Part shown: piece by piece, positions 3,555-27,265 of the stretch
Layout of the letters: each line of letters starts with the position of its first letter
Position numbering within the stretch: the first letter of the stretch is position 1
Assembly (NCBI GenBank): GCA_002792135.1
Contig: PFNU01000141.1
Location: 1 to 28,526, forward strand
From: a bacterium (Candidatus Torokbacteria) CG_4_10_14_0_2_um_filter_35_8
GTDB lineage: Bacteria; Patescibacteriota; GCA-2792135
Reading direction: 5' to 3'
DNA length: 28,526 nucleotides
The notes under the pieces: generated by a model
The model's input: only the letters and a program-made list of their open reading frames with translations
Database searches by the model: none
Told to the model about the DNA's origin: nothing
Translations under genes and position numbers: made by a program

Positions 3555-3996
3555 GGGGTTAAATTCTAGATTAAAGCTTTTGATTGTATCAAAAAAACAT
3601 AAGAAATAACAACCAGTTTGAATTATGAATTATGAATAAGGAGTAAGGGGGCTTTACTTCAAACACAAAATATAACGTAAAGCATTCCAAGTCTTTCTTT
3701 ATTATTACTGAAAAGATACGACATTGTGTCGTTTTCCAAGAATCCTAAAATATAGCCTCCATTCTTAAGGAGAAAATATCAACAATCTACTTCTTTTTTT
3801 ATAAAAATTAGGTTTTCTAATACTCTATTCGATTATTATAACACCATATAAAACAGCAAAGATTACCCCCGCTTCCACAATCCATAATTCCTGATTCGTA
3901 ATTCCTGATTCATCACGTATTACGTGATTCATTACTCGCAAGGCAGCAGACCTCTGCTTAACACATTAAATTAAGACAATTCACATCTTCTGGTAT

Positions 3997-6393
3997 TCAC
4001 CTACCAACAACAAATCCAAACACTTTATCAGTATCCAATACGCCTTTGTAGTAAACTTCATTATCACTCTTTTTTTCTACATCAGAAGATTTCCATAAAA
4101 CTTCCCAATCTCTCGGATAGGAAATATTACTCTCAAAAACAACATTATCTCTTCCCGGCTGTTTTTGGATAACTAGCGAATAACTGTCAACTGGTTTTTC
4201 GTTATTAAGATTTAAAATAAAAGGAAGTTCGTATCTAACTGTAACCCTTTTTATTTCTTCTACGTTCAATTCAAGCCAATTACCAAAAACAGTATAGCCT
4301 GACTCTTCAAAAATATCTGTATCACTTTCAAGATCTTTTTTTACATTACCAAATATTTTTTCTAAATCAGGATCTTGAACATAATACTCAAACTCTGCAA
4401 CAGAAAGTTTATCACGTGCATCTTTATAGGAAATTTCCGAAAACCCTTCCGCAGAGATAAGAGTGCTTCCTTTAGGGACGAAAATTCTCATATAATGTAA
4501 ATTTCTTCCATTTGGCCATCCGGGATCCCCTGCATTCTCTCTTATTACAGTAACTTCATTGATAATCTCGCCATTATCTGCAATTTGAACCTTATGTTCA
4601 ATTTTTTCTTCTATCATTAAGTCGTTTTTCATTCCTCCAATATTTGTCTGTACTACATTTAAGTAATCTTTAGGAGCTTCCTTTACCTCTCCTGCTATAC
4701 CAAGAAGTCTTGCTTTATCTTGAATCTCTTGGTTTTCAAAGAAAAAGAGAATGTGTTTTTTCTGCATTAGCTCTATAAAATTATCTACCACATCCACCCA
4801 CCTAGCAGAAGAAATTTCTTTAAACTTTTTAACAAGACGGGGAGCAAGAAGCGAAATAATTTTCTTATGTCTTAAAAGATCTTCTTTATCTCTCACGAGC
4901 TCAGGATCCATATGCAGGGTTTCTTTGACAAAATTTTCTGAGTCTATCGTAAGATCAAGTTCAGGAAGGTAAATCTCACCAGTTACTTTCAAAAGTTCTA
5001 TTGCAACTTGAGGAGTAATAGCAATCATTCCATCAGGCTTCTGCCTCCCGCAATGCTCATACATCCAAGAAATTTTCTTAGCTGATAAAGGAAAGTCTAG
5101 AAACCAATTAGCATCTTGGAGCATCCATTTATCATTAACGCGAGCGATTGGCGGGGGAGGAACAATTTTTGTATCAACCAAATGAGAAGGATTATAAATG
5201 TTATCTACTTTAAGTTCTTTTATCTGAAAATTCTCAGTCCTTAATTCTCCATACGTGCCAATAAAACCCCCTGTTGCTCTCATTTGAGCATTGTTTTGGA
5301 AAATAAGCAAGAAAAATTTAGGCTCTTCTCTCCCCAAAACCTCAGAAAATACCTCTGAAAAATCTTTGACAAATAAAAGGCTCTTTCTTAATCTTGGAAG
5401 TTCTTCCTGCAAAGTAACTACCTGTTCCCTTATATCTTCCGGTAAATCTCTGGCATCAACTTGAGAAAGCTCCCCCTGAATTCCACTAAGATAATTTAGG
5501 CTAATACTTAAGTTCTCTTCGCAAGAAGCTATAAATTCCGAAAACTCCATTTCTTTTGTCGATGCACCTAATACCGTTGGGTCTCTTTCACCTAAAACCA
5601 ACTCTTCATTTTCAGAAGAAAAAGCTAAAGGAACATAAGGAGAAGAAAGGACTGGGTTAAGACCCAAAGAAAGATGATACCCCATTGACGACAGTTTCTC
5701 TCCGGCTTTAACTAGGTGTTTTCCTGATTTAATCTTTTTCCCTTGAGGAAGAATTTTCACAAGATAGGAAAAATCATTTTCTACTTTTTGGACTTGCTTG
5801 TGAATAGATTCAAAAATATTTTCGGCTTCGGCAAATTCCTCTTGTGCCATATTGAGCCTCAAACCTTCAATGTTGTTCTTAGCTTGCTCTAGGTGAGAAT
5901 AGGCAAGATCAGCCTGGGAATAAATATTTTCTTTTTTGTTAATTACATCTCCATAAAGATTAAAAATCCCAAAACTAGAGTAAATTAAAAGACATATGAC
6001 AACAAAAACAAGGATACTCTTATTGATAACAAATTTTTTGGGAAAGACAAGATTAATTTGAGAACGAGAATGAAAAATAGGCGGCTTCTTATTAAAACTA
6101 AAGATATCAATAAACTTTCTCTTTTTAGAGGGTGAACTAACTGTAGAAGGTTTAACTTTAATGAATCTAGTTCCTTTTTTGTATTTTGGTCTTATAATCA
6201 ACCTTTTCTTGTTTTTAGCAGGACCATAAGATTCATACTTTTCTTTGATATCAGCATTAAGTTTCTCCTCTACTGGTATAGAATAACTTTTTCCTCTTAC
6301 GTCAAAGAAGCTCAGTTCTATTTTCTGAGGTTTTTGGAAAATTTTTGGTACAAGATGAATGTCAAAGAATTTTTTAATAGGTTTTTTTGACAT
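3997..6393 (-). CDS. DUF4012 domain membrane-anchored protein
   Basis: N-terminal basic region followed by one TM segment (SILVFVVICLLIYSSFGIF), a helical region, then FQNNAQMRATGGFIGTYG, DANWFLDFPLSA and QKQPG motifs recalled for DUF4012. Start codon uncertain. Confidence 0.8.
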   Translation of the reverse strand: MSKKPIKKFFDIHLVPKIFQKPQKIELSFFDVRGKSYSIPVEEKLNADIKEKYESYGPAKNKKRLIIRPKYKKGTRFIKVKPSTVSSPSKKRKFIDIFSFNKKPPIFHSRSQINLVFPKKFVINKSILVFVVICLLIYSSFGIFNLYGDVINKKENIYSQADLAYSHLEQAKNNIEGLRLNMAQEEFAEAENIFESIHKQVQKVENDFSYLVKILPQGKKIKSGKHLVKAGEKLSSMGYHLSLGLNPVLSSPYVPLAFSSENEELVLGERDPTVLGASTKEMEFSEFIASCEENLSISLNYLSGIQGELSQVDARDLPEDIREQVVTLQEELPRLRKSLLFVKDFSEVFSEVLGREEPKFFLLIFQNNAQMRATGGFIGTYGELRTENFQIKELKVDNIYNPSHLVDTKIVPPPPIARVNDKWMLQDANWFLDFPLSAKKISWMYEHCGRQKPDGMIAITPQVAIELLKVTGEIYLPELDLTIDSENFVKETLHMDPELVRDKEDLLRHKKIISLLAPRLVKKFKEISSARWVDVVDNFIELMQKKHILFFFENQEIQDKARLLGIAGEVKEAPKDYLNVVQTNIGGMKNDLMIEEKIEHKVQIADNGEIINEVTVIRENAGDPGWPNGRNLHYMRIFVPKGSTLISAEGFSEISYKDARDKLSVAEFEYYVQDPDLEKIFGNVKKDLESDTDIFEESGYTVFGNWLELNVEEIKRVTVRYELPFILNLNNEKPVDSYSLVIQKQPGRDNVVFESNISYPRDWEVLWKSSDVEKKSDNEVYYKGVLDTDKVFGFVVGR

Positions 6394-6420
6394 TAAAAAT
6401 GAATGAGGAATTAGGAATTA

Positions 6421-6562
6421 GGAATTTCCGCTCCGCCTGAGGCGGACGGATCAGCCTAGGGCTGAAGGGACTTTGGATTCAAGAGTAAGTTAGGAATTCT
6501 CCAAGTATTACAGGAATGAGATGTGGTATTCCCCTCCTTACCAAGGAGGGGCTAGGGGAGGT
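6421..6562. repeat. Composite dispersed repeat (TCCGCC/GGCGGA + TCAGCCTAGGGCTGA + CCCCTCCTT..AAGGAGGGG.TAGGGGAGG), copy 1
   Basis: Collinear block similarity to 28278-28448. Confidence 0.75.
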
Positions 6563-8938: not shown

Positions 8939-9175
8939 ATAATGCTAATGAAATATATACCTAAAAGTATCCTTGCTTTACAACAATACATTCAACCGTA
9001 AAGCTGCAAATGTCGAATTAAGAATCATGAATCACGAATTCTAGATATGCAATAAAACAGATAGACGAGAGTTCTGCTTTCACCCTAGCGTTTCAGAAGG
9101 CCTCTCTCAATACTTAAACCTTCAACTCTCCATTCCTAATGCCCCAATAACCCAATATCCTAACCTCCTAACTTC

Positions 9176-12290: not shown

Positions 12291-12401
12291 GGCGTTTTTT
12301 GGGCATTAGTCATTCAGTCATTGGGATTTGATTAGAAATTGCTAATTGGAAATTGGACATTTGCAACCTCAATTCACAAATCAAAATTTCGGACTTAGAA
12401 T

Positions 12402-14228
12402 TTATCTCACGACAAAATCTACCATTCTAAGTTCTAGCCCCCTTGCCCCATTCCACTCATCACATATCAAATTAAACACCAAATCAATCCTTTTACCGAT
12501 TCTTAAACTAGCACATTTTTCTACCATATTAAAGCCAATGGCTTTAAAATAACGACTATTCTTTTTAATTTCCATCTTAAGATGATTTTCAGCTCGACCC
12601 ACTCTTCTCAAATTCACAATTTCTACATTTTTAATTAGAAATTTGGGTTCAGGGTTTCCTTCTCCAAAAGGTTCAAGCCTTGCGACATCATCAAACAGTT
12701 CTATATTAAGACTTTTTTCTTCCACTTCTTTTTCTATTTTTAAAACTTCTTTTAAATCCTGAGGTTTAATTTTTTTATTAGCAATTTTAGTAATTTTCTT
12801 TTTAAACTCTTCAAAATTCTTCTGCCTAATGTCCATTCCTGCTGCTTGACTATGTCCACCAAACTCCAGTAATAAATTAGAGAGTTTTTCTAAGGCTTTA
12901 GTAATATGAAAGGTAGGAATACTCCTTGCAGAGCCTGTTAAAATATTTCCTCTTTTCTCAAAAATTAATACTGGTCTAGAATACTCTTCCATAATTTTTC
13001 CTGCAACAAGTCCACAGATCCCTGAAGGCCAATTCTCATCATAAGCAATCAAAATTTTTGGAATGCGTTTTGCTTTCTTTGTTAGTCCTAACTTCGCCTT
13101 TGCTTCCCCTATAATTTTATTTACTAAATCCTGCCTATTAACATTTAAAATATTAAGCTTTCTTGCAAGCGGCCTCACCTTATCCTCTCTTTTAATATTT
13201 AATAAATAATAAGCAGAATTCGCATGATCCATTCTGCCTGCAGCATTAAGCCTAGGACCAATTTGGAAGCCTAGAGTATAAGTTGATAAACTCGATCTTA
13301 ATTCATCTGCCTTACTAATTTTTCTAACTTTATCCTCAACTCTAATTCCTGCAAGATTCATAAGTTCCCTTAAACCCAATCTTTGAGTTTTTTCTAAAAC
13401 CTTTAAACCATATTTTACAAAAACTCTATTCTCAGAAATAATTGGCGCACAATCACAAACAGTGCCAAGTGCCACAAGATCCAAAAACCACTTTTCCCGT
13501 CCTTGAGAAATATCAACTTTAGGAATATTTAAAGGCTTCTTTGCTTTTAATTTTGAAGCAAACTTAGAATCACTTGCAGCTCTAATTAAAGCCTGACTTA
13601 ACTTAAAAGCAATTCCCACACCTGTCAACTCTTTAAATGGATACTTACTATCTTTTCTTTTAGGATTAATTATTGCAAGAGCCTTAGGAAGTTTTTTTCG
13701 ACAATGATGATGATCAGTGACAATTATTTTCATTCCAATCTTATTTGCAAGTTCTATCTCTTTAAAATCTGTTACTCCTAAGTCCACTGTGATTATTAAA
13801 TCCGTTCCATTCTTTTCTAAACCCTTGATTACTTTCTCGTTTAATCCATATCCTTCTTTAATCCTATCTGGAATATAAACTGAAACTTTTGCTCCTAGTC
13901 TTTTTAAAGTCTCCGATAAAACTACAGACGCAGTAACCCCATCCACATCATAATCTCCAAAAACAACAATCTTTTTCTTTTCTTTAATAAATTTAAAAAT
14001 CTCCCTGATAACTTTCTTTATATCAGGAAGTAGGAGAGGATCGTATAGATCCTGTCCAAAATCAGGAAGCAGAAAATGATCCACCCCTTTCTGAGTTGTA
14101 ATCTTTCTATTATAAAGAAGCTGAACTAGGGTAGGATTTAGTTCAGGAAATCTATCTAAAATTTTCTTTGGAACCTTTGGGAGGACTTTCCAGGTTTTTT
14201 GAGTTTTTGTGGACACAATTAAATTCAA
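12402..14228 (-). CDS. recJ: ssDNA-specific exonuclease RecJ
   Basis: GDYDVDG, TVDLG, TDHH, ALGTVCD, GPRLNAAGR, GSARS and GGHSQAAG. The listed TTG start lies in a repeat arm, so GTG at 14216 is more likely. Confidence 0.96.
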   Translation of the reverse strand: MNLIVSTKTQKTWKVLPKVPKKILDRFPELNPTLVQLLYNRKITTQKGVDHFLLPDFGQDLYDPLLLPDIKKVIREIFKFIKEKKKIVVFGDYDVDGVTASVVLSETLKRLGAKVSVYIPDRIKEGYGLNEKVIKGLEKNGTDLIITVDLGVTDFKEIELANKIGMKIIVTDHHHCRKKLPKALAIINPKRKDSKYPFKELTGVGIAFKLSQALIRAASDSKFASKLKAKKPLNIPKVDISQGREKWFLDLVALGTVCDCAPIISENRVFVKYGLKVLEKTQRLGLRELMNLAGIRVEDKVRKISKADELRSSLSTYTLGFQIGPRLNAAGRMDHANSAYYLLNIKREDKVRPLARKLNILNVNRQDLVNKIIGEAKAKLGLTKKAKRIPKILIAYDENWPSGICGLVAGKIMEEYSRPVLIFEKRGNILTGSARSIPTFHITKALEKLSNLLLEFGGHSQAAGMDIRQKNFEEFKKKITKIANKKIKPQDLKEVLKIEKEVEEKSLNIELFDDVARLEPFGEGNPEPKFLIKNVEIVNLRRVGRAENHLKMEIKKNSRYFKAIGFNMVEKCASLRIGKRIDLVFNLICDEWNGARGLELRMVDFVVR

Positions 14229-14345
14229 AATCTAAAATTTAAAATGCAAAAATAATGAGTAAGCTGAAGAAATGCGAATGATACGAATGCTATGCGAATC
14301 CGCCTGCGGCGGACGAATATCTGTACGAATTCTGCTAAACACCTC

Positions 14346-15105: not shown

Positions 15106-15170
15106 GGGGTTAAAAGGTTTTTTGTCATAAATATTCTATATTCCATATTCTAAATTCTTCATTCTCAATT

Positions 15171-15208
15171 CCCTAGTAGCCTAGTAGTCCTAGTTGCCTA
15201 GTAGCCTA
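15171..15208. repeat. CCTAGTAG(C/T) tandem arm overlapping the ackA 3' end
   Basis: ccctagtagcctagtagtcctagttgcctagtagccta; encodes NRLLGN plus the TAG stop. Confidence 0.85.
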
Positions 15209-17367: not shown

Positions 17368-17404
17368 CCTAGTAGCCTAGTTACCTAGTAGCCCTAGTAG
17401 CCTA
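17368..17404. repeat. CCTAGTAG tandem arm starting at the pfkB stop codon
   Basis: cctagtagcctagttacctagtagccctagtagccta; the final cta is the TAG stop. Confidence 0.85.
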
Positions 17405-18400
17405 ACTTTTCACCCACTTTCTCTCTTTCTCTATAATTTCGTTTCTTGTCAGAAGTCCATTTTGAGCTCCAAATTCTCTTACTACACCAGCGCCATTTAA
17501 GACTCCCCAGTGTAAAGCTTTCTTTATATCTTCACCGTTAATAATTATACTTGCAAGAAAAGCAGCAGAAAAAGCATCACCTGCGCCAAGAGTACTTACT
17601 TCTTTTACTGGATACGATGGAGTCTTAAAAAATTTATTTTCAAAACGCGCAAAAGCACCTTTTTTCCCATCTGTAATAACAGTAATTTTAGAACCAAGGA
17701 AAGATAAAGCCTGGGTGAGACTTTGAAAATTTCTTTTCTCAAATTTCTTTCCGAGAATTTCTACAGCTTCTTCTCTATTTACAATAAAGCAATCGGTCAC
17801 TTTTACAAATCGGGACATTAAACTTCCCTCTTTCCAATTTTCCTTAAGCTCAGTAGCTCCTGGATTCCAGGCAATTTTAATTCTGGGATGGTCTTTTTTA
17901 AACTGTAAGAGATCCTTTATAACTCTATTGGATCTGCCACTTAAGTGACTTATAAAAATCCACTGTGCTTTTTGTAAAGCTCCTTTCTTCAAATAAGCCT
18001 TACAAAGAAAATCACTTACACCTCGATAAGTAAAAACTGTTCTTTCTCCCAAAGGATCGCTTAGAATAATAGAAAGAGCAGTCTTAAGACCAGCTTTTTT
18101 TGTAATTTGGATCAAAGAAGTATCTATTTTCTTTCTATCAAACTCTTTAATAACTGTTTTTCCCATATTATCATTAGAGATAACCCCTAGCGGTACGCAA
18201 TCTATACTAAGTTTCTTTAAAGCGCAAGCAGTATTTCCCCCACCTCCGCCAGTGGAAAAGAAAACATCCTTTGCTACAATCTTCGTACCAAGATTAAAAC
18301 AAAGAAAAGGAGCCTCTTTTCCTCTTTTTAAAATTTTCACAGATGATGTTTTGATAAAAATATCGTAGACAATGCCACCGATGGTTATTACTTGAGACAT
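17402..18400 (-). CDS. PfkB/ribokinase-family carbohydrate kinase
   Basis: GGGGGNTA, NPG, NREEA, TDGKKGA and STLGAGDAFSAAF (PfkB signature with anion-hole GAGD). Confidence 0.9.
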   Translation of the reverse strand: MSQVITIGGIVYDIFIKTSSVKILKRGKEAPFLCFNLGTKIVAKDVFFSTGGGGGNTACALKKLSIDCVPLGVISNDNMGKTVIKEFDRKKIDTSLIQITKKAGLKTALSIILSDPLGERTVFTYRGVSDFLCKAYLKKGALQKAQWIFISHLSGRSNRVIKDLLQFKKDHPRIKIAWNPGATELKENWKEGSLMSRFVKVTDCFIVNREEAVEILGKKFEKRNFQSLTQALSFLGSKITVITDGKKGAFARFENKFFKTPSYPVKEVSTLGAGDAFSAAFLASIIINGEDIKKALHWGVLNGAGVVREFGAQNGLLTRNEIIEKERKWVKS

Positions 18401-18456: not shown

Positions 18457-18568
18457 TGTCATTCCCGTCCCGTACTAAATACGGGATAAACTCCAGCGGG
18501 AATCTACATTCAGAGTGATGGATTCCTGCTGGAGTTTACCCCATACTTGATACAGGGCAGGAATGACA
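18457..18568. repeat. TGTCATTCC(C/T)G-terminated MITE-like long hairpin, copy 1
   Basis: Two ~50-bp inverted arms (tgtcattcccg...ataaactccagcgggaatct / ggattcctgctggagtttac...caggaatgaca). Confidence 0.82.
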
Positions 18569-18574
18569 TTCTTT

Positions 18575-20188
18575 CTAGTACCTATCCGTCCGAGGCGAAC
18601 TAGTGCCTTCTTTCTCAACCAAATACGACATCAAACTTCTCCCAGTCATCTCTGCTGGTTTTTCAATCCCCATTAAATTCAAAACCGTTGGCGCAACATC
18701 AGAAAGAAACCCTAAGGTAGGAGGAATAAACCCTTCTTCCTTTTTTTCTGGCTCTTGTTTCTTAAAATCACTTCCAACTAGAATAAACGGAACAGGACTT
18801 GTATTATGTTTTTTATCCATCTCTAAAGTTTGAGGATCTAGCATTACTTCTGCGTTGCCGTGATCTGCGGTAATCAATGCTACACCATTTTGGGCAAGTA
18901 CTTCTTTTATAACATCTCCTAAACATTTATCAACTGCTTCACAAGCTTTTATACCAGCAGATATATTTCCAGTGTGCCCTACCATATCAGGGTTGGCGAA
19001 ATTTACAAGAACAAAAGCATATTTATCCTCTTGAATAGCCTGAATGAGTCTATCGCGTACCTTAAAAGCACTCATCTCTGGTTTTAGATCATACGTGGCT
19101 ACATCCGGAGAAGGAATAACAACTTTTACTTCCTCAAAAAAACCCTCTTCGTTTCCACAATCAAAAAAATAAGTTACATGAGCATATTTCTCAGTCTCAG
19201 CAATATGAAATTGTTTTAGACCCTTAAGACTTACAACTTCAGTAATGGAGTTTTTAATTTCTTCCTCAGGAAAAGCAACTTCACAATTAAGACCTTTTTC
19301 ATATTCCGTCATAGCAGTAAAGAATATATTTTTAGGCCGTACTAATAGATCAAACTCCTTAAAATCAGGATTTATAAAAGCTTTTGTGATTTGACGCGCC
19401 CTATCAGATCGAAAATTAAAAAAGATAATACCATCATTGTCTGAAATTTTAGCAACTAGTTTTTTATCTTTTAAAGTAACAACTATGGGCTGAATGGTTT
19501 CGTCATATATTCCTCTGTCATAAAAATCTTGAATAGCAGATAAGGAATCTTGAAAAAAAATACCTTCTCCCAAAACCATAGCTTGATAAGCTTTTTCTAC
19601 TCTCCACCAATTATTGTCTCTGTCCATAGCAAAGTATCTTCCGGAGAGGGTAGCAATCTTGCCCACACCTGATTCTTCCATGCGTTTTTCTAGCTCCTCT
19701 ATATAAGAAAGAGCAACTTTTGGCGCTGTATCTCTTCCATCTAAAAAAGCATGCACAAAAACTCTCTCTACATTTTCTCTCTTTGCTAGCTCCAAAAGAG
19801 CATAAAGATGATCTTGGTGACTATGAACTCCCCCAGGGCTTACAAGCCCCATCAAATGCAAGCTTGAATTGTGCTTTTTAACATGCTCTACTACCTTTAA
19901 AAAAGCTTGGTTCTTAAAGAAAGAACCATCTTTAATACTATTGGTAATCTTTACTACATCCTGAAAAATAATTCTTCCCCCACCCAAATTCATGTGTCCT
20001 ACCTCAGAGTTTCCAGGCTCTCCCCAGAAAAGACCTACTGCTTCTCCTGATGCTTGCAAGCTAATAAAAGGATAGTTTTCTTTTAAATTATCAAAGTTGG
20101 GAGTATACGCAGACTCTACGGCATTACCCTGCCCAGGTGGCGCAAGACCCCAACCGTCTAATATAATAAGGACTATGGGTTTACTCAT
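18575..20188 (-). CDS. gpmI: 2,3-bisphosphoglycerate-independent phosphoglycerate mutase, paralogue 1
   Basis: ILDGWG, GNSEVGH, GGVHSH, DGRD, GRYFAMDRD, RSDRARQ, ETEKYAH, NPDMVGH and TADHGN. ATG 20188 (MSKP) chosen by homology to paralogue 2. Confidence 0.95.
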   Translation of the reverse strand: MSKPIVLIILDGWGLAPPGQGNAVESAYTPNFDNLKENYPFISLQASGEAVGLFWGEPGNSEVGHMNLGGGRIIFQDVVKITNSIKDGSFFKNQAFLKVVEHVKKHNSSLHLMGLVSPGGVHSHQDHLYALLELAKRENVERVFVHAFLDGRDTAPKVALSYIEELEKRMEESGVGKIATLSGRYFAMDRDNNWWRVEKAYQAMVLGEGIFFQDSLSAIQDFYDRGIYDETIQPIVVTLKDKKLVAKISDNDGIIFFNFRSDRARQITKAFINPDFKEFDLLVRPKNIFFTAMTEYEKGLNCEVAFPEEEIKNSITEVVSLKGLKQFHIAETEKYAHVTYFFDCGNEEGFFEEVKVVIPSPDVATYDLKPEMSAFKVRDRLIQAIQEDKYAFVLVNFANPDMVGHTGNISAGIKACEAVDKCLGDVIKEVLAQNGVALITADHGNAEVMLDPQTLEMDKKHNTSPVPFILVGSDFKKQEPEKKEEGFIPPTLGFLSDVAPTVLNLMGIEKPAEMTGRSLMSYLVEKEGTSSPRTDRY

Positions 20189-20279
20189 AAATTTAGCTGT
20201 TAGTTTTCTCGTCAAAGATATTAAGTTAGCGAACTTAAGGCTACTAGGTTACTGGGGCTACTGGGAACTAGAGTATTTG

Positions 20280-20663
20280 TTACTGGGGTCTTTTGACTTT
20301 CCTATTATAGTACCTAATGTAGCCATTTATCATTTTAACAAGAGTTGAATATTTTGAGATTAATTTATCCGCTAGTTCTTTATTGATATATTTTTTATCT
20401 TTTGCTTCGCAGAGCTTGCTTACTACTTCTAACACTTCCCCTCTTGCAACACTAAAGCAGTAATTTTTTTCTTTAAAATAATATCTACCGTAACCTTCTG
20501 CTATATTATTTGCTACAGAAGAAGCCGATCTTCTTAATTGTGTTGATAAATTGAATTTCTCTTTTGGAGGAAATCTCTCTATTTCTTTATGGATAATGAG
20601 CATTAAAACATGAGCACCTTTCCATATCTTTAAACCATCAAGACTATATTTATCTTCCTCCAT
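20280..20663 (-). CDS. Four-helix-bundle protein (23S rRNA IVP / bAvd-like), copy 1
   Basis: LKIWKGAH, FPPKEKFNLSTQLRRSASSVANNIAEGYGR, ARGEVLEV and LVKMING match the four-helix-bundle family pattern. Confidence 0.9.
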   Translation of the reverse strand: MEEDKYSLDGLKIWKGAHVLMLIIHKEIERFPPKEKFNLSTQLRRSASSVANNIAEGYGRYYFKEKNYCFSVARGEVLEVVSKLCEAKDKKYINKELADKLISKYSTLVKMINGYIRYYNRKVKRPQ

Positions 20664-20730
20664 ATATTTAAAAGACTTCTAACAATTACCCTAATTTCTA
20701 ACTCCCTAGTAGCCTAGTAGTCCTAGTTGC

Positions 20731-22263
20731 CTAAACCATCAAACTCTCCTCCGTTCCTTTCGGTTTCTCAATATGTAAAATATCTAAAATCGTAGGAGCA
20801 ACATTTGCTAAAACTCCCTTTTTAAGTTTAACACTCTGAAAACTATCAACAAGAATAAAAGGAACAGGGTTTCTAGAATGAGTTGTAGAGGTATCACCAG
20901 TGTCAGGATAAATCATTTCTTCAATATTGCCATGATCTGCTGTAATGACGGCTTCACCTTTTTTCTTTAAGATACTGCTCACAAGCTTACCTAAGCATTC
21001 GTCAACTACTTCACAAGCCTTAATTCCAGCTTTTAAATCTCCTGTATGACCAACCATATCAGGATTTGCATAGTTTACAACGATAAAATCATAGATACCT
21101 TCTTTAATATACTTAACCAAAGTATCTGTTAGTTCAAAAGCACTCATCTCTGGTTTTTCTGCGTAACTTTTGACAATCGGAGAATCAATTTTAATTCTTT
21201 CTTCGTGAGCAACAGGATCTGCAAAACCTCCATTAAAAAAATAAGTAACATGAGCATATTTCTCACTTTCTGTAATATAAAGCTGTTTTATGCCCTTTTT
21301 ACCTAAAATCCTAGGCAAGGTATTCTTAATAGTCCTTGCAGGATAAGCAGTAATGGTATCAAGATCAGGACCAAACTCTGTCATCGCAACAAACAAGATA
21401 TCGCTAAGTCTTTCTTTTATTTTAAAACCTATAAACTCCCTCTGAGCAAAAGTTTTGGTAAGCTGCCTTGCTCTATCTGAGCGAAGATTAACAAAAACAA
21501 TAGAATCTCCTGATTTTATCCTCGGTACCATCTTACCATTTTTATAAATCACAGTTGGCTCTATAAATTCATCTCCAATTTTCTTTTTATAATTTTCTTT
21601 AATTGCTTTTCTTGCTGAGCTTGATTTTTCCCCTTTACCATAAACTAAAGCGTTGTAAATCTTTTCTGTTCTTTCCCATTTTTTTACTCTATCCATTGCA
21701 AAGTACCTTCCTGAAATGGTGCCAATATCAACTTCTATTTTTTCTTTTCTAACAAAATTCTCTAGATCTTTAAGAAACCACAGACCATTATGAGAAGGTG
21801 CATCTCTTCCATCAGTAAAAAGATGAAGAACTGCGCCTTTTACCTTATTATCTTTTATAAATTTCAAAATTTTTTTCAAATGGAAGGGGTCTGCATGAGC
21901 ACTCTGATCTCCTGTAATAAGACTCATAATATGCAGTCGGGACTTCAAAGCCTCGATATGCTTTAAGGCAGCAATAAATGCCGGGTTTCTAAAAAAAGTA
22001 CCATCTAGAATTGAACAGGAGACGTAACAAGAGTCTTGGGTAATAACCTTTCCAGCACCCAAATTCATGTGTCCTGCCTCAGAATTTCCTATTTGATTAT
22101 CAGGAAGTCCTACATACTTTCCTGATGCTTCCAGGCTCGTATGAGGATACTCTCTCCAATATTTATCAAAGTTTGGAGTCTTTGCTTGAGAGATAGCGTT
22201 TCCTTTTCCAGACGGTGCAAGTCCCCAACCGTCTAAGATTATTAAGACTAAAGGTTTAGACAT
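20731..22263 (-). CDS. gpmI: 2,3-bisphosphoglycerate-independent phosphoglycerate mutase, paralogue 2
   Basis: Same catalytic motif set (ILDGWG, GNSEAGH, DGRD, RSDRARQ, ESEKYAH, NPDMVGH, TADHGN); GGVHSH is replaced by DQSAHAD. Confidence 0.93.
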   Translation of the reverse strand: MSKPLVLIILDGWGLAPSGKGNAISQAKTPNFDKYWREYPHTSLEASGKYVGLPDNQIGNSEAGHMNLGAGKVITQDSCYVSCSILDGTFFRNPAFIAALKHIEALKSRLHIMSLITGDQSAHADPFHLKKILKFIKDNKVKGAVLHLFTDGRDAPSHNGLWFLKDLENFVRKEKIEVDIGTISGRYFAMDRVKKWERTEKIYNALVYGKGEKSSSARKAIKENYKKKIGDEFIEPTVIYKNGKMVPRIKSGDSIVFVNLRSDRARQLTKTFAQREFIGFKIKERLSDILFVAMTEFGPDLDTITAYPARTIKNTLPRILGKKGIKQLYITESEKYAHVTYFFNGGFADPVAHEERIKIDSPIVKSYAEKPEMSAFELTDTLVKYIKEGIYDFIVVNYANPDMVGHTGDLKAGIKACEVVDECLGKLVSSILKKKGEAVITADHGNIEEMIYPDTGDTSTTHSRNPVPFILVDSFQSVKLKKGVLANVAPTILDILHIEKPKGTEESLMV

Positions 22264-22336
22264 AAATTTAGCTGTTAATTTTTTCGTTTAAGATACTAGA
22301 ATTGATAAATTTAAGGTTACTAGGTTACTGGGATTA

Positions 22337-22738
22337 CTAGGAACTAGGGTGTTTGTTAGAATGTTTCTTGGCTTTCTTATTGTAGTACCCAATGTAACCA
22401 TTTATCATTTTAACAAGAGTTGAATATTTGGAAATTAACTTATTTACAAGTCTTTTGTTGATATAGTTTTTGTCTCTTGCCTCACAAAGCTCACTTATTA
22501 CTTCTAAAACTTCCCCTCTTGCAATACTGAAGCAGTGATTTTTTTCTTTAAAATAATATCTACCATAACCTTCTGCAATATTATTTGCTACAGAAGAGGC
22601 TGCTTTTCTTAATTGTGATACCAGATTAAATTTTTCTTCTTCAGGAAACTTCTGTATCTCCTTATGGATAATCAGCATTAAAACATGAGCACCTTTCCAT
22701 ATCTTTAAACTATCAAGACTATATTTATCTTCCTCCAT
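22337..22738 (-). CDS. Four-helix-bundle protein (23S rRNA IVP / bAvd-like), copy 2
   Basis: About 81% identical to copy 1 by manual alignment (24 differences in 127 positions). Confidence 0.9.
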   Translation of the reverse strand: MEEDKYSLDSLKIWKGAHVLMLIIHKEIQKFPEEEKFNLVSQLRKAASSVANNIAEGYGRYYFKEKNHCFSIARGEVLEVISELCEARDKNYINKRLVNKLISKYSTLVKMINGYIGYYNKKAKKHSNKHPSS

Positions 22739-22840
22739 ATATTTAAAAGATTGCTAACAATCATCCTAATTTCTAACTCCCTAGTAGCCTAGTAGTCCTA
22801 GTAGTCCTAGTAGCCTAACACTATAGTACAAAACAACATT

Positions 22841-24097
22841 TTAATCCTTCACTTTCTCTTCAATCCTAAGCAACCTATTATATTTACAAATCCTCTCGCC
22901 CCGAGAAAGCGACCCTGTCTTCATATTATTTGTTCCCATGCCTACTGCCAAATCGGAAATAAAGACATCTTCTGTATCTCCTGATCTATGAGAGGTAACT
23001 GTAGTAAATTTTTTATCTTGTGCCTTTTTAACAAATTCAAACATCTCTGTTATCGTTCCAATCTGATTTGGTTTAATCAAAACGGAATTAACACAATCTT
23101 CTAAAATTGCTTTCTCAAGCCTTTTTGGATTGGTAACTAAAAGATCATCTCCTATTAAATCAATGTTATCACCCAATTTTTCTTTTAACATCTTCCAACC
23201 AGAAAAATCATCTTCAAAAAGACCATCTTCTATTTTTGTTATTGGAAATTTCTCTATTAGTTTCGAGTAATAATCAATCAATTTCTCATTACTAAACTTT
23301 TTCTTTCCTCCATCTAAAATATATTTTCCGCCTTCATAAAAACTAGTCGCGGCACTATCAACCCCTAAGAAAATTTCTTGTCCTGGTTTGTAACCTGATT
23401 TTTCTATGGCTTGCATTATAAATTCTAAAGCTTCTTCGTTTGATTTAAGTTCTGGTGCATACCCACCCTCATCTCCTACATTTGTAGTAAACCCTTTTTC
23501 TTCTAAAAGTTTTTTTAGAGTATGGAAAATTTCTGATCCTGCTCGAAGCTGCTCCTTAAAACTTTTGATCTCTTGGGGAATAATCCAAAATTCCTGAATA
23601 TCAAGATTATTTGATGCGTGCTTTCCACCATTTATGACATTAAACAAAGGAATAGGAATTTTATATTCAGTATTTTCTGAATTAAAAATACTCCTTATAT
23701 ATTCATAAAGCTCCAAACCGGAAAATACCGCGCTTGCCTTACAATAAGCAATGCTCACAGACAAAATCGCATTTGCCCCTAATTCCTCCTTATTTTCTGT
23801 ACCGTCTAATTCTAGCATAATTCCATCAACTTCCTTCTGCTCTCCTGGATCTTGACCTACTAATTTAGGGAATATTATTTCATTAACATTTTCTACTGCT
23901 TTTAAAACACCTTTGCCATGATACCGGCTTCCATCACCATCTCTTAATTCTAAAGCTTCATATTTACCTGTCGATGCACCCGATGGAACTTGCGCAATTC
24001 CTGTTGAACCATCGTCAAAGGTAACTTCAGTTTCAATAGTAGGATTCCCTCTAGAATCTAAAATCTCTCTTGCAGAGATTGATTTTATAGTCGCCAT
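22841..24097 (-). CDS. eno: Enolase
   Basis: REILDSRGNPT, PSGASTG, NVINGGKH, GDEGG, GDDL, LIKPNQIG, SHRSG and KYNRLLRIEE. Confidence 0.98.
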   Translation of the reverse strand: MATIKSISAREILDSRGNPTIETEVTFDDGSTGIAQVPSGASTGKYEALELRDGDGSRYHGKGVLKAVENVNEIIFPKLVGQDPGEQKEVDGIMLELDGTENKEELGANAILSVSIAYCKASAVFSGLELYEYIRSIFNSENTEYKIPIPLFNVINGGKHASNNLDIQEFWIIPQEIKSFKEQLRAGSEIFHTLKKLLEEKGFTTNVGDEGGYAPELKSNEEALEFIMQAIEKSGYKPGQEIFLGVDSAATSFYEGGKYILDGGKKKFSNEKLIDYYSKLIEKFPITKIEDGLFEDDFSGWKMLKEKLGDNIDLIGDDLLVTNPKRLEKAILEDCVNSVLIKPNQIGTITEMFEFVKKAQDKKFTTVTSHRSGDTEDVFISDLAVGMGTNNMKTGSLSRGERICKYNRLLRIEEKVKD

Positions 24098-24648: not shown

Positions 24649-25752
24649 TTATATTTTTAACACCTCGACCCCCAGAAGCTTTTTTCCTGATAAAAACTCC
24701 AGCATTGCTCCTCCACCAGTTGAAACGTGATTCATCTTATCAAAAGTTTTTGTATCTAAAAGAGTATTGACAGTCTCTCCTCCTCCGACGACTTTAAAAG
24801 CTTTAGATTTAGAAATTGCTTTTGCTATTTTAAAAGTTCCATCCCTAAAACGCTTATCTTCATACATTCCAAGAGGTCCATTCCAAACTATTGTTTTAGC
24901 TCTCTTAATATAATCTTTAAAAAGTTTAATTGACTTTTTGCCAGTATCAAAAACTCTACCTTTATCCCATCTGTAATCAACAGGTAAAATAATATTAGAA
25001 TAATTTTTTGGAACTCTATCTTGAAGATCTTCTTTGCCTTTTTCTAGTTTTATCTTATTTTCTTTAAGAAATTCATACGAGATCGCGCTACTCAGTAAAA
25101 TATGATCGAATTTATCTTTTAAATTATCTATTACTGGAAGCTTGGTTTCTATCTTTATACCACCAATAATCGCAATTGCGGGTTTTTTAGGCTTCTTCAT
25201 AACTTTTTCTAAGACCTTTACTTCTTTTTCTACAAGTAAACCCGCTGCACTTCTTAAATATCGAGGGATAAAAGTTACGGAAGAATGATCTCTGTGGCAT
25301 ACTCCAAAAGCATCTTGTACAAAGAAATCTGCATAGCTTGCAAGTTTTTTAGCAAAACTTTGAGAGCCATGTTCTTCTTCTGGATGGAATCTAAGATTTT
25401 CAAGTAAAATAATTTCTTTTGGTTTTAATTCCGAGATAATCTTAGAAGTCTTTAGACCAATACAATCATTAGAAAATTTAACTTTCCTTTTTAATAATTT
25501 CTCCAATCTATCTCTTACAGGCAGTAGGCTAAACCTCTTTACTCTTCTCCCTTCAGGTCTTCCTAAATGGCTTATCAGAATAATTGAACAATTATTTTTT
25601 AACAAATACTTAATCGTAGGAAGAGTCTGTCTAATTTTATAATCCTCGGATTTGTTAACCTTGTTATCAGATCCTAACGGAACGTTGAAGTCGCAACGGA
25701 CGAGGATTTTTTTATTCTTTATATGAAGGTTTTTTAAAGTTCTAAGTTCCAT
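24649..25752 (-). CDS. pgk: Phosphoglycerate kinase (compact, 367 aa)
   Basis: VRCDFNVP, SHLGRPEG, LLENLRF, DAFGVCHR, GGIKIETK, WNGPLG, GGGET and STGGGAMLEFL. Confidence 0.97.
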   Translation of the reverse strand: MELRTLKNLHIKNKKILVRCDFNVPLGSDNKVNKSEDYKIRQTLPTIKYLLKNNCSIILISHLGRPEGRRVKRFSLLPVRDRLEKLLKRKVKFSNDCIGLKTSKIISELKPKEIILLENLRFHPEEEHGSQSFAKKLASYADFFVQDAFGVCHRDHSSVTFIPRYLRSAAGLLVEKEVKVLEKVMKKPKKPAIAIIGGIKIETKLPVIDNLKDKFDHILLSSAISYEFLKENKIKLEKGKEDLQDRVPKNYSNIILPVDYRWDKGRVFDTGKKSIKLFKDYIKRAKTIVWNGPLGMYEDKRFRDGTFKIAKAISKSKAFKVVGGGETVNTLLDTKTFDKMNHVSTGGGAMLEFLSGKKLLGVEVLKI

Positions 25753-25863: not shown

Positions 25864-26889
25864 TTAATTTACTTTAGATCCTACCATTCTCGCCATATCC
25901 ACAAGTCTACAAGAATATCCCCACTCATTATCATACCAGGAAATTACTTTTAAGAAATTTTTACCAATCATTTGAGTAAGAGTACCATCAACAATTGCAG
26001 AGCGAGGATCTTTAATATAATCAGAAGAAACTTTTGGTTCATACTCTATAGCTAAAATACCTTTCATTTTTTCTGATTTAGATGCCTCTTCAAATTTTCT
26101 ATTTACCTCTTCTACTGCTGTATCTTTTGTAATATGACAAGTAACATCGGCAAGAGAAACACAAGGTGTGGGAACTCTTACCGCAAAGCCATCAAAAATT
26201 TCTGAAAGCTTAGGGATTGCTTTTCCTACAGTTTTAGCAGCACCAGAGGTGGTAGGAACTAAATTTATTGCTGCAGCCCTTCCTCTTCTAAAATCTTTTT
26301 CACAAGGGCTATCAACAATACTCTGCGTGCTGGTATAAGAGTGAATGGTATTCATTAAAGCTTGCCTAATATCAAAATGATCATCAATTACTTTCACAAC
26401 CGGAGCAAGACAATTTGTAGTACAAGAACCATTGGAAATAAGATCATCTTTTCCAGAATTATATTGTTCTTCATTAACTCCCATAAGATAAGTTGGAATA
26501 TCTTCTGACTTGGAAGGAGCGGAAATAATTACTTTTTTAGTACCTGCTTTAAGGTGTTTTCCAGCACCTTCTTTTTCTGTAAAAAATCCTGTGCATTCTA
26601 AGACTAAATCAACACCTAAATCCTCCCAAGGAAGCCTTTCTGGATCTTTTTCCGCTAGAATTTTGTATTCTTTACCATCTACAATTATTGCATTTTTTTT
26701 AGAGTTTACATCTCTCTCGTATCTTCCGTAAACAGAATCATACTTTAGTAAATAGGAAAGAGTCTTCGCATCTGTAAGGTCGTTAATCGCCACAATTTCA
26801 ATATCATTAAATTCTAAGGCTCTTTGGAAAGTAGTCCTCCCTATTCTTCCAAATCCATTGATGGCAATTTTTATTTTTTTACTAATCAT
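25864..26889 (-). CDS. gap: Glyceraldehyde-3-phosphate dehydrogenase type I
   Basis: INGFGRIGR, SNGSCTTNCLAP (catalytic Cys), PTTSGAAK and WYDNEWGYS. Confidence 0.98.
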   Translation of the reverse strand: MISKKIKIAINGFGRIGRTTFQRALEFNDIEIVAINDLTDAKTLSYLLKYDSVYGRYERDVNSKKNAIIVDGKEYKILAEKDPERLPWEDLGVDLVLECTGFFTEKEGAGKHLKAGTKKVIISAPSKSEDIPTYLMGVNEEQYNSGKDDLISNGSCTTNCLAPVVKVIDDHFDIRQALMNTIHSYTSTQSIVDSPCEKDFRRGRAAAINLVPTTSGAAKTVGKAIPKLSEIFDGFAVRVPTPCVSLADVTCHITKDTAVEEVNRKFEEASKSEKMKGILAIEYEPKVSSDYIKDPRSAIVDGTLTQMIGKNFLKVISWYDNEWGYSCRLVDMARMVGSKVN

Positions 26890-27024
26890 AGAGTTGGATT
26901 AAAAATTAAAAGTGAGAAACATCAAAAAAACTTGATGCGAATTAATACAAATGATACGAATCCGCCCTGGGGACGTAGTATGTCCCTGGGAACGTTCTAC
27001 GTTCCTGGACGGAGAATTGGATAC

Positions 27025-27149
27025 TGTCATTCCCGCGAGGGACGTTAAACGTCCCGAAAGCGGGAATCCATACCAGAGTCTATCACAATATTAAAGGCAT
27101 GGATTCCTGCTGGAGTTTACCCCGTAATCAGTACGGGGCAGGAATGACA
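27025..27149. repeat. TGTCATTCC(C/T)G-terminated MITE-like long hairpin, copy 2
   Basis: Right half nearly identical to 18520-18568. Left half is GTCATTCCCGCGA[gggacgttaaacgtccc]GAAAGCGGGAATCCA. Confidence 0.82.
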
Positions 27150-27265
27150 ACTTTGTCTTTGTACAGAAGCTCGCATTTAATTCGTTCCTCTCATCCCGTT
27201 CAACGGGACTTAGTGTGGAATTCGAAACTAATTCGTATTCGGCCGTATAGCTCTTAATTCTAAAT

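What the first reader, a model, noticed from the sequence alone, without database searches (positions are those of the whole stretch)
20189..22840. Four-helix-bundle genes enclosed in ~50-bp inverted tandem-repeat arms: IVS-like cassettes inside a glycolytic operon
Seen: both four-helix genes are bracketed by the same short-period repeat in opposite orientations. Upstream arms are 20679-20733 and 22754-22817 (ctaacaa..cctaatttctaactccctagtagcctagtagtcctag). Downstream arms are 20239-20282 and 22315-22359 (reverse complement: ctaacaaacaccctagttcctagtaatcccagtaacctagtaacc). In the mRNA these could pair into an imperfect ~50-bp stem with the ORF in the loop. Known: this family was first found in 23S rRNA intervening sequences excised by RNase III, and its DGR homologue Avd binds nucleic acid. 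Inference: these are mRNA-level IVS-like selfish or regulatory cassettes that insert at gene junctions. They could be excised or processed without disrupting the flanking genes, with the protein possibly binding its own arms.
Basis: partly seen in the sequence, partly recalled or inferred. Interest (0 to 1): 0.85.

Follow-up and report, generated by a model that had tools for sequence, protein, structure and literature searches.

The report
Hairpin-armed four-helix-bundle cassettes in operon
Two copies of a small gene, of the family first found inside ribosomal-RNA "intervening sequences", have been inserted between the genes of an otherwise tightly packed glycolysis operon, each enclosed by mirror-image runs of an 8-9-base repeat that can close into a long hairpin; this gene-in-a-hairpin design is shared across the gene family in many phyla, but what moves or processes it is still unknown.

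Summary
On the minus strand the order is eno, 4HB-A, gpmI-A, 4HB-B, gpmI-B. Both small genes are PF05635/TIGR02436 four-helix-bundle (4HB) proteins. Each lies between inverted arrays of a CTACTAGG(N) unit that pair into a 51-64-bp imperfect stem.

- **Derived insertions.** None of 86 eno|gpmI and gpmI|gpmI junctions from other lineages holds such a gene. Their median gaps are only a few bases.
- **Constrained.** dN/dS between the copies is 0.18, and the arms are more conserved than synonymous sites.
- **Family trait.** In 111 cassettes, each upstream arm pairs preferentially with its own downstream arm (permutation p <= 5e-5, two sets).
- **Turnover.** One related genus shows a filled site, an ORF-less hairpin, an empty site and a swapped cassette at orthologous positions.

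The IVS-like reading is only partly supported. Arm mismatches show no G·U bias on the sense strand, so RNA-stem selection is not shown. No mobility enzyme, target duplication or population polymorphism was found. The same repeat also occurs alone at about 20 other junctions.

This scan has reported the same class on other DNA several times. I found no description of the operon-borne form in the searchable literature.

The parts
22841..24097 (-). eno (enolase), the gene upstream of cassette A
   Evidence: Pfam Enolase_N and Enolase_C, 4e-56 and 4e-108
22753..22836 (-). Cassette A 5' arm; its core is a 4.5-copy array of a 9-nt unit at 22780-22817
   Evidence: TRF; long-range pairs in the MFE structure
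22337..22738 (-). 4HB-A, a 133-aa four-helix-bundle protein. Its last codons and stop lie inside the 3' arm.
   Evidence: PF05635 9e-29; TIGR02436 3e-27; alignment with B
22284..22372 (-). Cassette A 3' arm, the inverse array (core 22314-22341)
   Evidence: TRF; duplex with the 5' arm -60.6 kcal/mol, 64 bp
22264..22313 (-). About 50-nt leader between the 3' arm and the gpmI-A start codon. It is homologous to the leader of cassette B.
   Evidence: A/B alignment: 3' non-coding part 81% identical
20731..22263 (-). gpmI-A, cofactor-independent phosphoglycerate mutase (510 aa)
   Evidence: Pfam iPGM_N and Metalloenzyme; 47% identical to gpmI-B
20673..20730 (-). Cassette B 5' arm (array 20705-20733). 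It starts at the stop codon of gpmI-A.
   Evidence: TRF; MFE long-range pairs
20280..20663 (-). 4HB-B, a 127-aa four-helix-bundle protein
   Evidence: PF05635 4e-27; TIGR02436; nearest solved structure 2GSC XCC0516, 1.4e-9
20229..20291 (-). Cassette B 3' arm (array 20239-20265). It overlaps the ORF stop codon.
   Evidence: TRF; duplex -53.9 kcal/mol, 51 bp
20189..20238 (-). About 50-nt leader between the 3' arm and the gpmI-B start codon
   Evidence: A/B alignment
18575..20188 (-). gpmI-B, the second and ancient paralogue of phosphoglycerate mutase (537 aa)
   Evidence: Pfam. The gpmA-type/gpmB-type tandem pair recurs in many lineages.
15170..15208 (-). Solo array of the same unit directly after a stop codon, with no four-helix gene. 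It is 31/31 identical to the 5' arm of cassette B.
17368..17406 (-). Solo array of the same unit after the stop codon of the pfkB-family gene
27266..27300 (-). Solo array of the same unit after a stop codon

Best explanation
These are two sister copies of a hairpin-armed four-helix-bundle gene cassette. It uses the same gene family and the same ORF-in-a-stem layout as the ORF-bearing intervening sequences of 23S rRNA, but here it sits between protein-coding genes.

Shown:
- Each unit runs from the stop codon of the upstream gene to the start codon of the next gene. It consists of a 5' array of CTACTAGG(N) units, the ORF, the inverse array overlapping the ORF's stop, and a ~50-nt leader.
- Both units were added to an ancient, normally gap-free eno-gpmI-gpmI operon.
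- They are older than the present population but younger than the gpmI paralogues.
- The protein and the arms are both under constraint.
- Cassettes of this class are gained, lost, swapped or replaced by ORF-less hairpins at fixed intergenic sites in related genomes.

Inferred:
- The cassette has no promoter or terminator of its own and is transcribed with the operon. In that transcript the arms can close a 51-64-bp stem that hides the cassette's ribosome-binding region and could be cut by a double-strand RNase, as in rRNA.
- The arms are kept complementary by a DNA-level process rather than by base-pair-wise RNA selection. That process could be inverted copying or recombination among the genome's dispersed arrays of the same unit. 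Such recombination at arrays is the likeliest route by which the cassette was copied from one junction to the next.
For: Family. Stem.

Insertion: 0 of 44 eno|gpmI and 0 of 42 gpmI|gpmI junctions elsewhere hold a 4HB, with median gaps of a few bases and the conserved order pgk-eno-gpmA-gpmB.

Age: 4HB A vs B has pS 0.405; gpmI A vs B has pS 0.604 and 48% aa identity.

Constraint: dN/dS is 0.18. The non-coding cassette parts are 91% and 81% identical against 59.5% at synonymous sites (p 9e-9 and 7e-6).

Arms specific to each cassette: the own partner ranks first in 14 of 34 and 19 of 77 cassettes, permutation p <= 5e-5 in each set.

Co-orientation with neighbours: 10/10 in this genome, and 20:1 and 64:12 upstream elsewhere. 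No terminator and no promoter excess.

Turnover in genus g9: at one site, a 4HB in G008, an ORF-less heptamer hairpin in G035 and a GIY-YIG gene in G084. At a second site, filled in three species and only 78 nt in G060. At a third site, cassettes of different subfamilies.

DNA-level symmetry of the arms: 88 G·U-type against 94 A·C-type mismatches.

Arrays shared with other junctions: 31/31 identity to 15170-15200. An ORF-less hairpin of the same unit lies at G000:C30:9405-9685.
Against: No enzyme for movement was identified. There is no PF13366 gene, and the Y1-transposase-like and small GIY-YIG genes of the genome are flanked by different, GC-rich hairpins.

No target-site duplication is visible. 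No empty or variant allele appears in four runs or ten assemblies of this population.

Homology between A and B runs past the 3' arm to the next start codon, so the copied unit does not end at the arm.

A close paralogue (77% aa, pheS|pheT junction, G000:C125) has arms of a different unit.

No close homologue of this 4HB clade was found outside this organism. RNase III was not found in this incomplete genome. A vs B arm differences are a mix of kept and broken pairs, with only 1-2 double compensatory changes.
Confidence: 0.6

Rival explanations
1. Coincidence of context. The four-helix genes are ordinary accessory genes that lie in intergenic DNA, which in this genome is full of short tandem repeats. 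The 'arms' are generic spacers in opposite orientation, with no functional tie to the gene.
For: The same unit occurs at about 20 other places without a 4HB gene, typically 1-68 nt after a stop codon or 52-78 nt before a start codon. The genome has 670 arrays of period 6-9, and 71% of them lie outside ORFs. Some non-4HB genes also have flanks that pair well.
Against: Upstream arms pair best with their own downstream arms in two independent sets, including within-genome comparisons. Arms abut the start and stop codons. 4HB genes rank 1, 4, 6, 17 and 23 of 633 genes for flank pairing. Arms are more conserved than synonymous sites. Every subfamily in the genome has its own matched unit.
Confidence: 0.1
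2. Segmental duplication only. One cassette was present upstream of a single gpmI, and a tandem duplication of [cassette + gpmI] produced the second copy. Nothing moved on its own.
For: The two units are direct repeats 2075 nt apart, and homology runs from the 5' arm to the gpmI start codon.
Against: The gpmA-type/gpmB-type pair is ancient and lies adjacent without any cassette in 42 junctions of many lineages. Synonymous divergence of the gpmI pair (pS 0.60) exceeds that of the cassette pair (pS 0.405). The first 24 gpmI codons show no shared synonymous sites: 6 of 18 identical codons against 128 of 216 elsewhere.
Confidence: 0.08
3. Host-serving RNA device. Inverted-array hairpins are intercistronic processing or stability elements of this lineage. 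The four-helix protein is a domesticated RNA-binding factor that acts on such hairpins genome-wide, and its gene simply resides in some of them.
For: Purifying selection on the protein (dN/dS 0.11-0.18). Eleven family members in a 0.89-Mb reduced genome. Regular placement of arrays after stops and before starts. ORF-less hairpins at junctions here and elsewhere. Strong co-orientation with operons. The locus is fixed and invariant in the population.
Against: No G·U over A·C bias in the arms. Two of 11 copies are broken. Cassettes are swapped or absent at orthologous sites in sister species. Most orthologous operons work without any such element.
Confidence: 0.17
4. Non-autonomous DNA element. 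The arms are ssDNA or cruciform hairpins recognised by a nuclease or transposase encoded elsewhere (Y1/RAYT-like or Ssn-like GIY-YIG). The four-helix gene is cargo.
For: Arm mismatches are strand-symmetric. The genome encodes 5 Y1_Tnp-like and 5 small GIY-YIG genes. A GIY-YIG gene occupies the orthologous site of a 4HB cassette in a sister species. Ssn nucleases are known to be framed by the repeats they cut (PMC11893778).
Against: Those genes are flanked by GC-rich hairpins unrelated to the tandem arrays. The unit sequence differs between cassettes of one genome, which a single sequence-specific enzyme would not explain. The strong orientation bias is not expected from a DNA transposon unless selection removes the other orientation.
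Confidence: 0.12

Closest known systems
ORF-bearing intervening sequences (IVS) of 23S rRNA (Leptospira; Coxiella burnetii S23p IVS, PMC4990558)
   Same: Same protein family (PF05635/TIGR02436). The ORF sits in the loop of a long stem made by terminal inverted repeats. Short tandem repeats lie directly upstream of the ORF (GACAGAT x3 in Coxiella). The ribosome-binding region lies inside the stem. Long proposed, but never shown, to be mobile.
   Different: Here the host is a polycistronic mRNA region between glycolytic genes, not helix 45 (or any other part) of 23S rRNA. RNase III excision is shown for the rRNA IVS but untested here. The ORFs here are under purifying selection, whereas the Coxiella ORF is described as decaying and untranslated.
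Avd, accessory protein of diversity-generating retroelements
   Same: Homologous four-helix-bundle fold family; it binds nucleic acid and the DGR reverse transcriptase (established knowledge, PMC5758913 lists it).
   Different: No reverse transcriptase or template/variable repeats are nearby; all neighbours are glycolytic genes. The NCBIfam Avd model does not match A or B. It matches other copies of the genome only far below its cut-off (29 and 25 bits against a cut-off of 80).
Intergenic heptamer simple-sequence arrays (GGGAATC/GGGGAYT in Xanthomonas and Nostoc, PMC4692102; heptanucleotide elements of Geobacter metallireducens, PMC2700814)
   Same: Arrays of 7-9-nt units of a few copies. They are G-rich on the sense strand within about 50 nt after stop codons, or on the antisense strand shortly before ORFs. 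This genome shows the same placement (against the abstract).
   Different: Those papers describe arrays without linking inverted pairs to an enclosed gene family. They favour G-quadruplex or regulatory roles.
REP/RAYT and NTS/Ssn systems (PMC11893778)
   Same: A small gene framed by dispersed repeats that also occur in many gene-less copies between genes.
   Different: Those genes encode the nuclease or transposase that acts on the repeats. A four-helix bundle has no known catalytic activity, and the repeat unit differs from cassette to cassette.
Integron gene cassettes (attC)
   Same: Promoter-less single-gene units in one orientation. An imperfect inverted repeat folds as a hairpin, and cassettes are exchanged at fixed sites.
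   Different: attC lies only at the 3' end of the cassette, and an integrase with an attI platform is required. Neither is seen here. The cargo here is always the same gene family.

Membership tests
PF05635 / TIGR02436 four-helix-bundle (23S rRNA IVS protein) family | Profile match above the curated cut-off | tested here: met
   PF05635: 100.2 and 95.1 bits against a cut-off of 33.8. TIGR02436: 94.9 and 93.1 bits against a cut-off of 24.
PF05635 / TIGR02436 four-helix-bundle (23S rRNA IVS protein) family | Conserved R-x3-S-x3-N-x2-E core motif (PMC3936711) | tested here: met
   Q42, S49, N53, E56 and E79 are invariant and R45 nearly invariant in 21 aligned cassette proteins.
PF05635 / TIGR02436 four-helix-bundle (23S rRNA IVS protein) family | Sequence relative with a solved four-helix-bundle pentamer | tested here: met
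   2GSC XCC0516, E 1.4e-9. The fold of A and B themselves was not modelled.
23S rRNA intervening sequence (IVS) | Inserted in a 23S rRNA helix | tested here: not met
   Both cassettes lie between protein-coding genes. All ten other family loci of the genome also lie between protein genes.
23S rRNA intervening sequence (IVS) | Terminal inverted repeats form a long stem enclosing the ORF | tested here: met
   MFE and centroid folds; 51-64 bp duplexes.
23S rRNA intervening sequence (IVS) | Excised from the precursor RNA by RNase III | not testable with these tools
   No RNA data could be laid. RNase III was not found in this 85%-complete genome but is present in 53/53 high-quality genomes of the phylum.
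DGR accessory protein Avd | Adjacent reverse transcriptase and template/variable repeats; match to the Avd equivalog model | tested here: not met
   Neighbours are eno, gpmI, pgk, gap and pfkB. NF033474 gives no hit for A or B.
Transposon / MITE | Terminal inverted repeats plus a target-site duplication, and a transposase in cis or trans | tested here: not met
   Inverted arms are present. By inspection of the outer borders there is no duplication beyond the arms. A/B homology continues 50 nt past the 3' arm. The candidate enzymes have other flanking repeats.
Integron cassette | Single 3' attC site and an integron integrase platform | not tested
   The architecture differs (arms on both sides). 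No integrase search was run.

The most novel reading that the evidence does not exclude
Hairpin-armed four-helix-bundle cassettes are a distinct, widespread class of exchangeable gene cassette. Inverted tandem-array hairpins between genes serve as landing and exchange sites. The four-helix protein itself promotes or protects this exchange, or the processing of the hairpin. The classical 23S rRNA intervening sequences are then just the subset that landed in rRNA.
Probability: 0.3. Interest if true: 0.85.

Novelty: new variant of a known kind. Interest (0 to 1): 0.6.

Why it matters
The function of the 23S rRNA IVS protein family, and the origin of rRNA intervening sequences, have been open since the early 1990s.

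If the rRNA IVS is one landing place of a general gene-in-a-hairpin cassette that also enters operons, the question can be studied in ordinary mRNAs and in many phyla. This window gives a clean case:
- an ancient operon with dozens of empty reference junctions;
- two sister cassettes that share arms;
- solo arrays and an ORF-less hairpin of the same unit in the same genome.

It also bears on how genome-reduced Patescibacteria tolerate and organise inserted DNA inside essential operons.

Tried and rejected
1. Strain-level filled/empty test. Contigs of four groundwater runs and ten assemblies carrying the exact protein all show the same filled locus with identical arms, so no polymorphism was seen. 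Contigs show presence, not absence.
2. Close relatives. The best gpmI-A relative in the metagenome contigs is 54% identical, and the genome set holds only 'same phylum' kin. Empty sites therefore come from distant lineages.
3. Close homologues of this 4HB clade in 5.8 billion proteins. Only the genome's own three copies were found, so there is no evidence of transfer between organisms for this clade.
4. Gene-conversion tract into the gpmI 5' end. Rejected, because synonymous sites there are not shared.
5. Compensatory changes between A and B. There are too few differences: 1-2 double changes against 7 broken pairs.
6. Sense-strand wobble bias as a test for an RNA stem. None was found, 88 against 94.
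7. RNase III in the genome. Not found with PF14622 or PF00636. This is probably incompleteness.
8. A trans-acting nuclease tied to the arms. PF13366 is absent. The Y1-like and GIY-YIG genes have unrelated flanks.
9. Arms as intrinsic terminators, or a cassette with its own promoter. No terminator and no promoter excess were found.
A five-sequence alignment was used instead, so the 77-locus sample is biased toward one subfamily.
11. RNA reads could not be examined.
Full report
**What is there**

The window is a whole 28.5-kb contig of a 0.89-Mb, 34% GC, 85%-complete genome of the Patescibacteria. Public runs that hold the sequence are groundwater and aquifer metagenomes.

All genes of the region lie on the minus strand, in this order:

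| Gene | Coordinates |
|---|---|
| gap | 25864-26889 |
| pgk | 24649-25752 |
| eno | 22841-24097 |
| 4HB-A | 22337-22738 |
| gpmI-A | 20731-22263 |
| 4HB-B | 20280-20663 |
| gpmI-B | 18575-20188 |
| pfkB-family kinase | 17402-18400 |

Both small proteins match PF05635 (1e-28 and 4e-27) and TIGR02436 'four helix bundle protein'. Their nearest solved relative is XCC0516 of Xanthomonas campestris (2GSC).

- Tandem Repeats Finder reports arrays of period 8-9 at exactly the four places named.
- The unit pattern occurs 9 times in the window against 0.43 expected.
- Folding each cassette as RNA pairs the outer arms in both the minimum-energy and the centroid structure.
- The arms alone give duplexes of 64 bp at -60.6 kcal/mol (A) and 51 bp at -53.9 kcal/mol (B).
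- The 5' arm starts at or just after the upstream gene's stop codon and ends 9-24 nt before the 4HB start codon. The 3' arm overlaps the 4HB stop codon. In copy A a one-base difference lets the ORF run on into the arm.
- The locus is real. Contigs of four DNA runs cover each cassette/flank junction, and ten independent assemblies carry it with identical arms.

**The cassettes are derived insertions**

The order pgk-eno-gpmA-type-gpmB-type recurs in dozens of metagenomic and genomic loci from other lineages. I scored 44 eno|gpmI and 42 gpmI|gpmI junctions there. None contains a four-helix gene, and the median gaps are only a few bases. These loci are not all independent.

The two gpmI genes of the window are ancient paralogues: 47-48% aa identity and pS 0.60. 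The two cassette ORFs are much closer: 81% aa identity, pS 0.405, dS 0.58. The first 24 gpmI codons share no excess of synonymous sites, so the similarity of the two units stops at the gpmI start codon.

The inserted unit is therefore arm-ORF-arm plus a ~50-nt leader. One junction was most likely seeded from the other after the paralogues had diverged.

**Both parts are constrained**

dN/dS between A and B is 0.18. The non-coding parts are 91% (5') and 81% (3') identical, against 59.5% at synonymous sites (p 9e-9 and 7e-6).

A third, broken copy (TAA at codon 30) lies between pheS and pheT on another contig. It is 77% identical in protein yet has arms built from a different unit of the CCTAAT type.

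**The design is a trait of the gene family**

The genome has 11 PF05635 loci. The copies belong to several subfamilies, and each has its own matched pair of arms built from a different short word. They sit between co-oriented housekeeping genes such as dgkA|ftsA, two pilin genes, and GT2|galT.

I asked whether an upstream arm pairs better with its own downstream arm than with those of other cassettes.

| Set | Cassettes | Own partner ranks first | Mean duplex, own vs other (kcal/mol) | Permutation p |
|---|---|---|---|---|
| This genome plus other Patescibacteria | 34 | 14 | -33.2 vs -19.4 | <= 5e-5 |
| Independent set from many phyla, one archaeon among the 80 loci fetched | 77 | 19 | -31.2 vs -19.9 | <= 5e-5 |

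Cassettes are strongly co-oriented with their neighbours.

**Turnover in a related genus**

- At one site next to a tRNA gene, G008 has an armed 4HB cassette. G035 has an ORF-less hairpin of inverted heptamers. G084 has a small GIY-YIG gene with a duplicated tRNA 3' end.
- At a second site the cassette is present in three species of the genus, while a neighbouring genus has only 78 nt with a short array.
- At a third site G008 has a broken 4HB, and G035 has a 4HB of another subfamily with different arms.

These are class-level observations, not about the window's own copies.

**What argues for caution**

1. The arm unit is not private to the cassettes. About 26 arrays of it occur genome-wide, usually 1-68 nt after a stop codon or 52-78 nt before a start codon.
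   - One at 15170-15200 is 31/31 identical to the 5' arm of B.
   - One junction on contig C30 has both orientations around ~100 nt with no ORF.
   - The genome as a whole carries 670 arrays of period 6-9, mostly outside ORFs. This placement echoes what was described for heptamer arrays in Xanthomonas and Nostoc (PMC4692102).
2. In a neutral DNA alignment of the arms of the 69 cassettes that score above the null, G·U-type mismatches on the sense strand (88) do not exceed A·C-type (94), and transversions dominate (239).
   - So there is no sign that the complementarity is maintained by selection on a sense-strand RNA stem.
   - It looks instead like DNA-level inverted copying or homogenisation followed by decay.
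3. No mobility enzyme, target duplication or polymorphism was found. This 4HB clade has no close relative outside the organism.
4. RNase III was not found in this incomplete genome, although it is universal in high-quality genomes of the phylum.

**Mechanism: what is shown and what is inferred**

Shown:
- insertion into an ancient operon;
- a stable potential stem enclosing the ORF;
- constraint on both protein and arms;
- cassette-specific complementarity across the family;
- turnover at fixed sites in relatives.

Inferred:
- co-transcription with the operon, since there is no terminator and no promoter excess;
- masking of the cassette's translation start by the stem, and possible double-strand RNase processing as in rRNA IVS (PMC4990558);
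- copying between junctions by recombination at dispersed arrays.

I put about 0.85 on 'derived insertion of a family-typical armed cassette'. I put about 0.35 on RNA processing at the stem. I put about 0.3-0.4 on the cassette being a mobile element in its own right.

**Comparison and novelty**

The closest known thing is the ORF-bearing 23S rRNA IVS. It shares the gene family, the stem and the tandem repeats before the ORF, but it has a different host molecule, and processing is unproven here. The cassette is not a DGR Avd, since there is no reverse transcriptase and the Avd model is not matched. It does not fit transposon or integron definitions.

Papers in the searchable library note the family in rRNA IVS, in cas loci (PMC3936711) and in DGRs, and describe heptamer arrays separately. 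I found none that describes the gene-plus-inverted-array cassette at operon junctions.

Earlier reports of this scan describe the same class on other genomes. Their later checks left the observation standing and priced the 'mobile insert' reading at 40-50%, which is in line with my own estimate.

What this window adds:
- a pair of cassettes that do share arms;
- a very well-supported empty ancestral state;
- the conservation of arms above synonymous sites;
- the negative wobble-bias test.

Noticed in passing
whole genome G000; in the window e.g. 963-994, 3619-3637, 6401-6426, 9014-9039, 12331-12361, 14221-14251, 28195-28282: Nearly every intergenic region carries short tandem arrays. TRF finds 1109 arrays in 0.89 Mb, with period 7 the mode (361). 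Of the 670 arrays of period 6-9, 71% lie outside ORF calls that cover 68% of the genome.
   Followed up: partly
window 15170-15208, 17368-17406, 27266-27300; G000 contigs C5, C14, C17, C36, C73, C112 and others: Arrays of the cassette's own unit occur without a four-helix gene and in a regular position. The G-rich sense orientation lies 1-68 nt after stop codons (the TAG is often part of the first unit). The inverse orientation lies 52-78 nt before start codons. This is the same placement reported for heptamer arrays in Xanthomonas and Nostoc (PMC4692102).
   Followed up: partly
G000:C30:9405-9685: An ORF-less hairpin: both orientations of the CTACTAGG-type array around ~100 nt between two co-oriented genes. 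It includes the GTAACAAATAC word that carries the stop codon of 4HB-B.
   Followed up: partly
window 18457-18568 and 26890-27300; also G000 C5:5300-5500 and C71: A different, GC-richer MITE-like hairpin family (48-nt arms, 81% complementary, 16-nt loop) lies between pfkB and gpmI-B. Related copies stack in the 400-nt gap upstream of gap.
   Followed up: no
G000:C140:69-629, C11, C92, C17:6355-6600, C66:510-1169: Five Y1-transposase-like (RAYT/IS200-like) genes and five small GIY-YIG genes. Several are flanked by GC-rich inverted hairpins; the C140 flanks pair at -58.7 kcal/mol. This looks like a separate REP/RAYT- or Ssn-like repeat system in the same small genome.
   Followed up: partly
L029 1392-1905 (G008), G035:C10:32577-32665, G084:C7:25550-25999: One orthologous site next to a tRNA gene holds three different things in three species of a genus. 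They are an armed 4HB cassette, an ORF-less inverted-heptamer hairpin, and a GIY-YIG gene with a ~25-nt duplication of the tRNA 3' end.
   Followed up: yes
G000:C125 (gene orientation 5431-5820), between pheS and pheT: A third member of the window's 4HB clade (77% aa identity to B) is broken by a TAA at codon 30. Its arms are built from a CCTAAT-type unit and abut the pheT start codon directly.
   Followed up: yes
window 20371-20598 joined to 22674-22884 (run X13, record 10): One low-depth contig (3.5x) joins the 5' part of cassette A to the body of cassette B. That would delete gpmI-A. It is most likely an assembler path through shared 31-mers, but a recombinant between the two direct repeats is not excluded.
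   Followed up: no
L061 3892-3973, L073 5334-5476, L056 502-607 (metagenome contigs): In a few other lineages the same eno|gpmI or gpmI|gpmI junctions hold 80-160-nt ORF-less hairpins made of inverted short words.
   Followed up: partly
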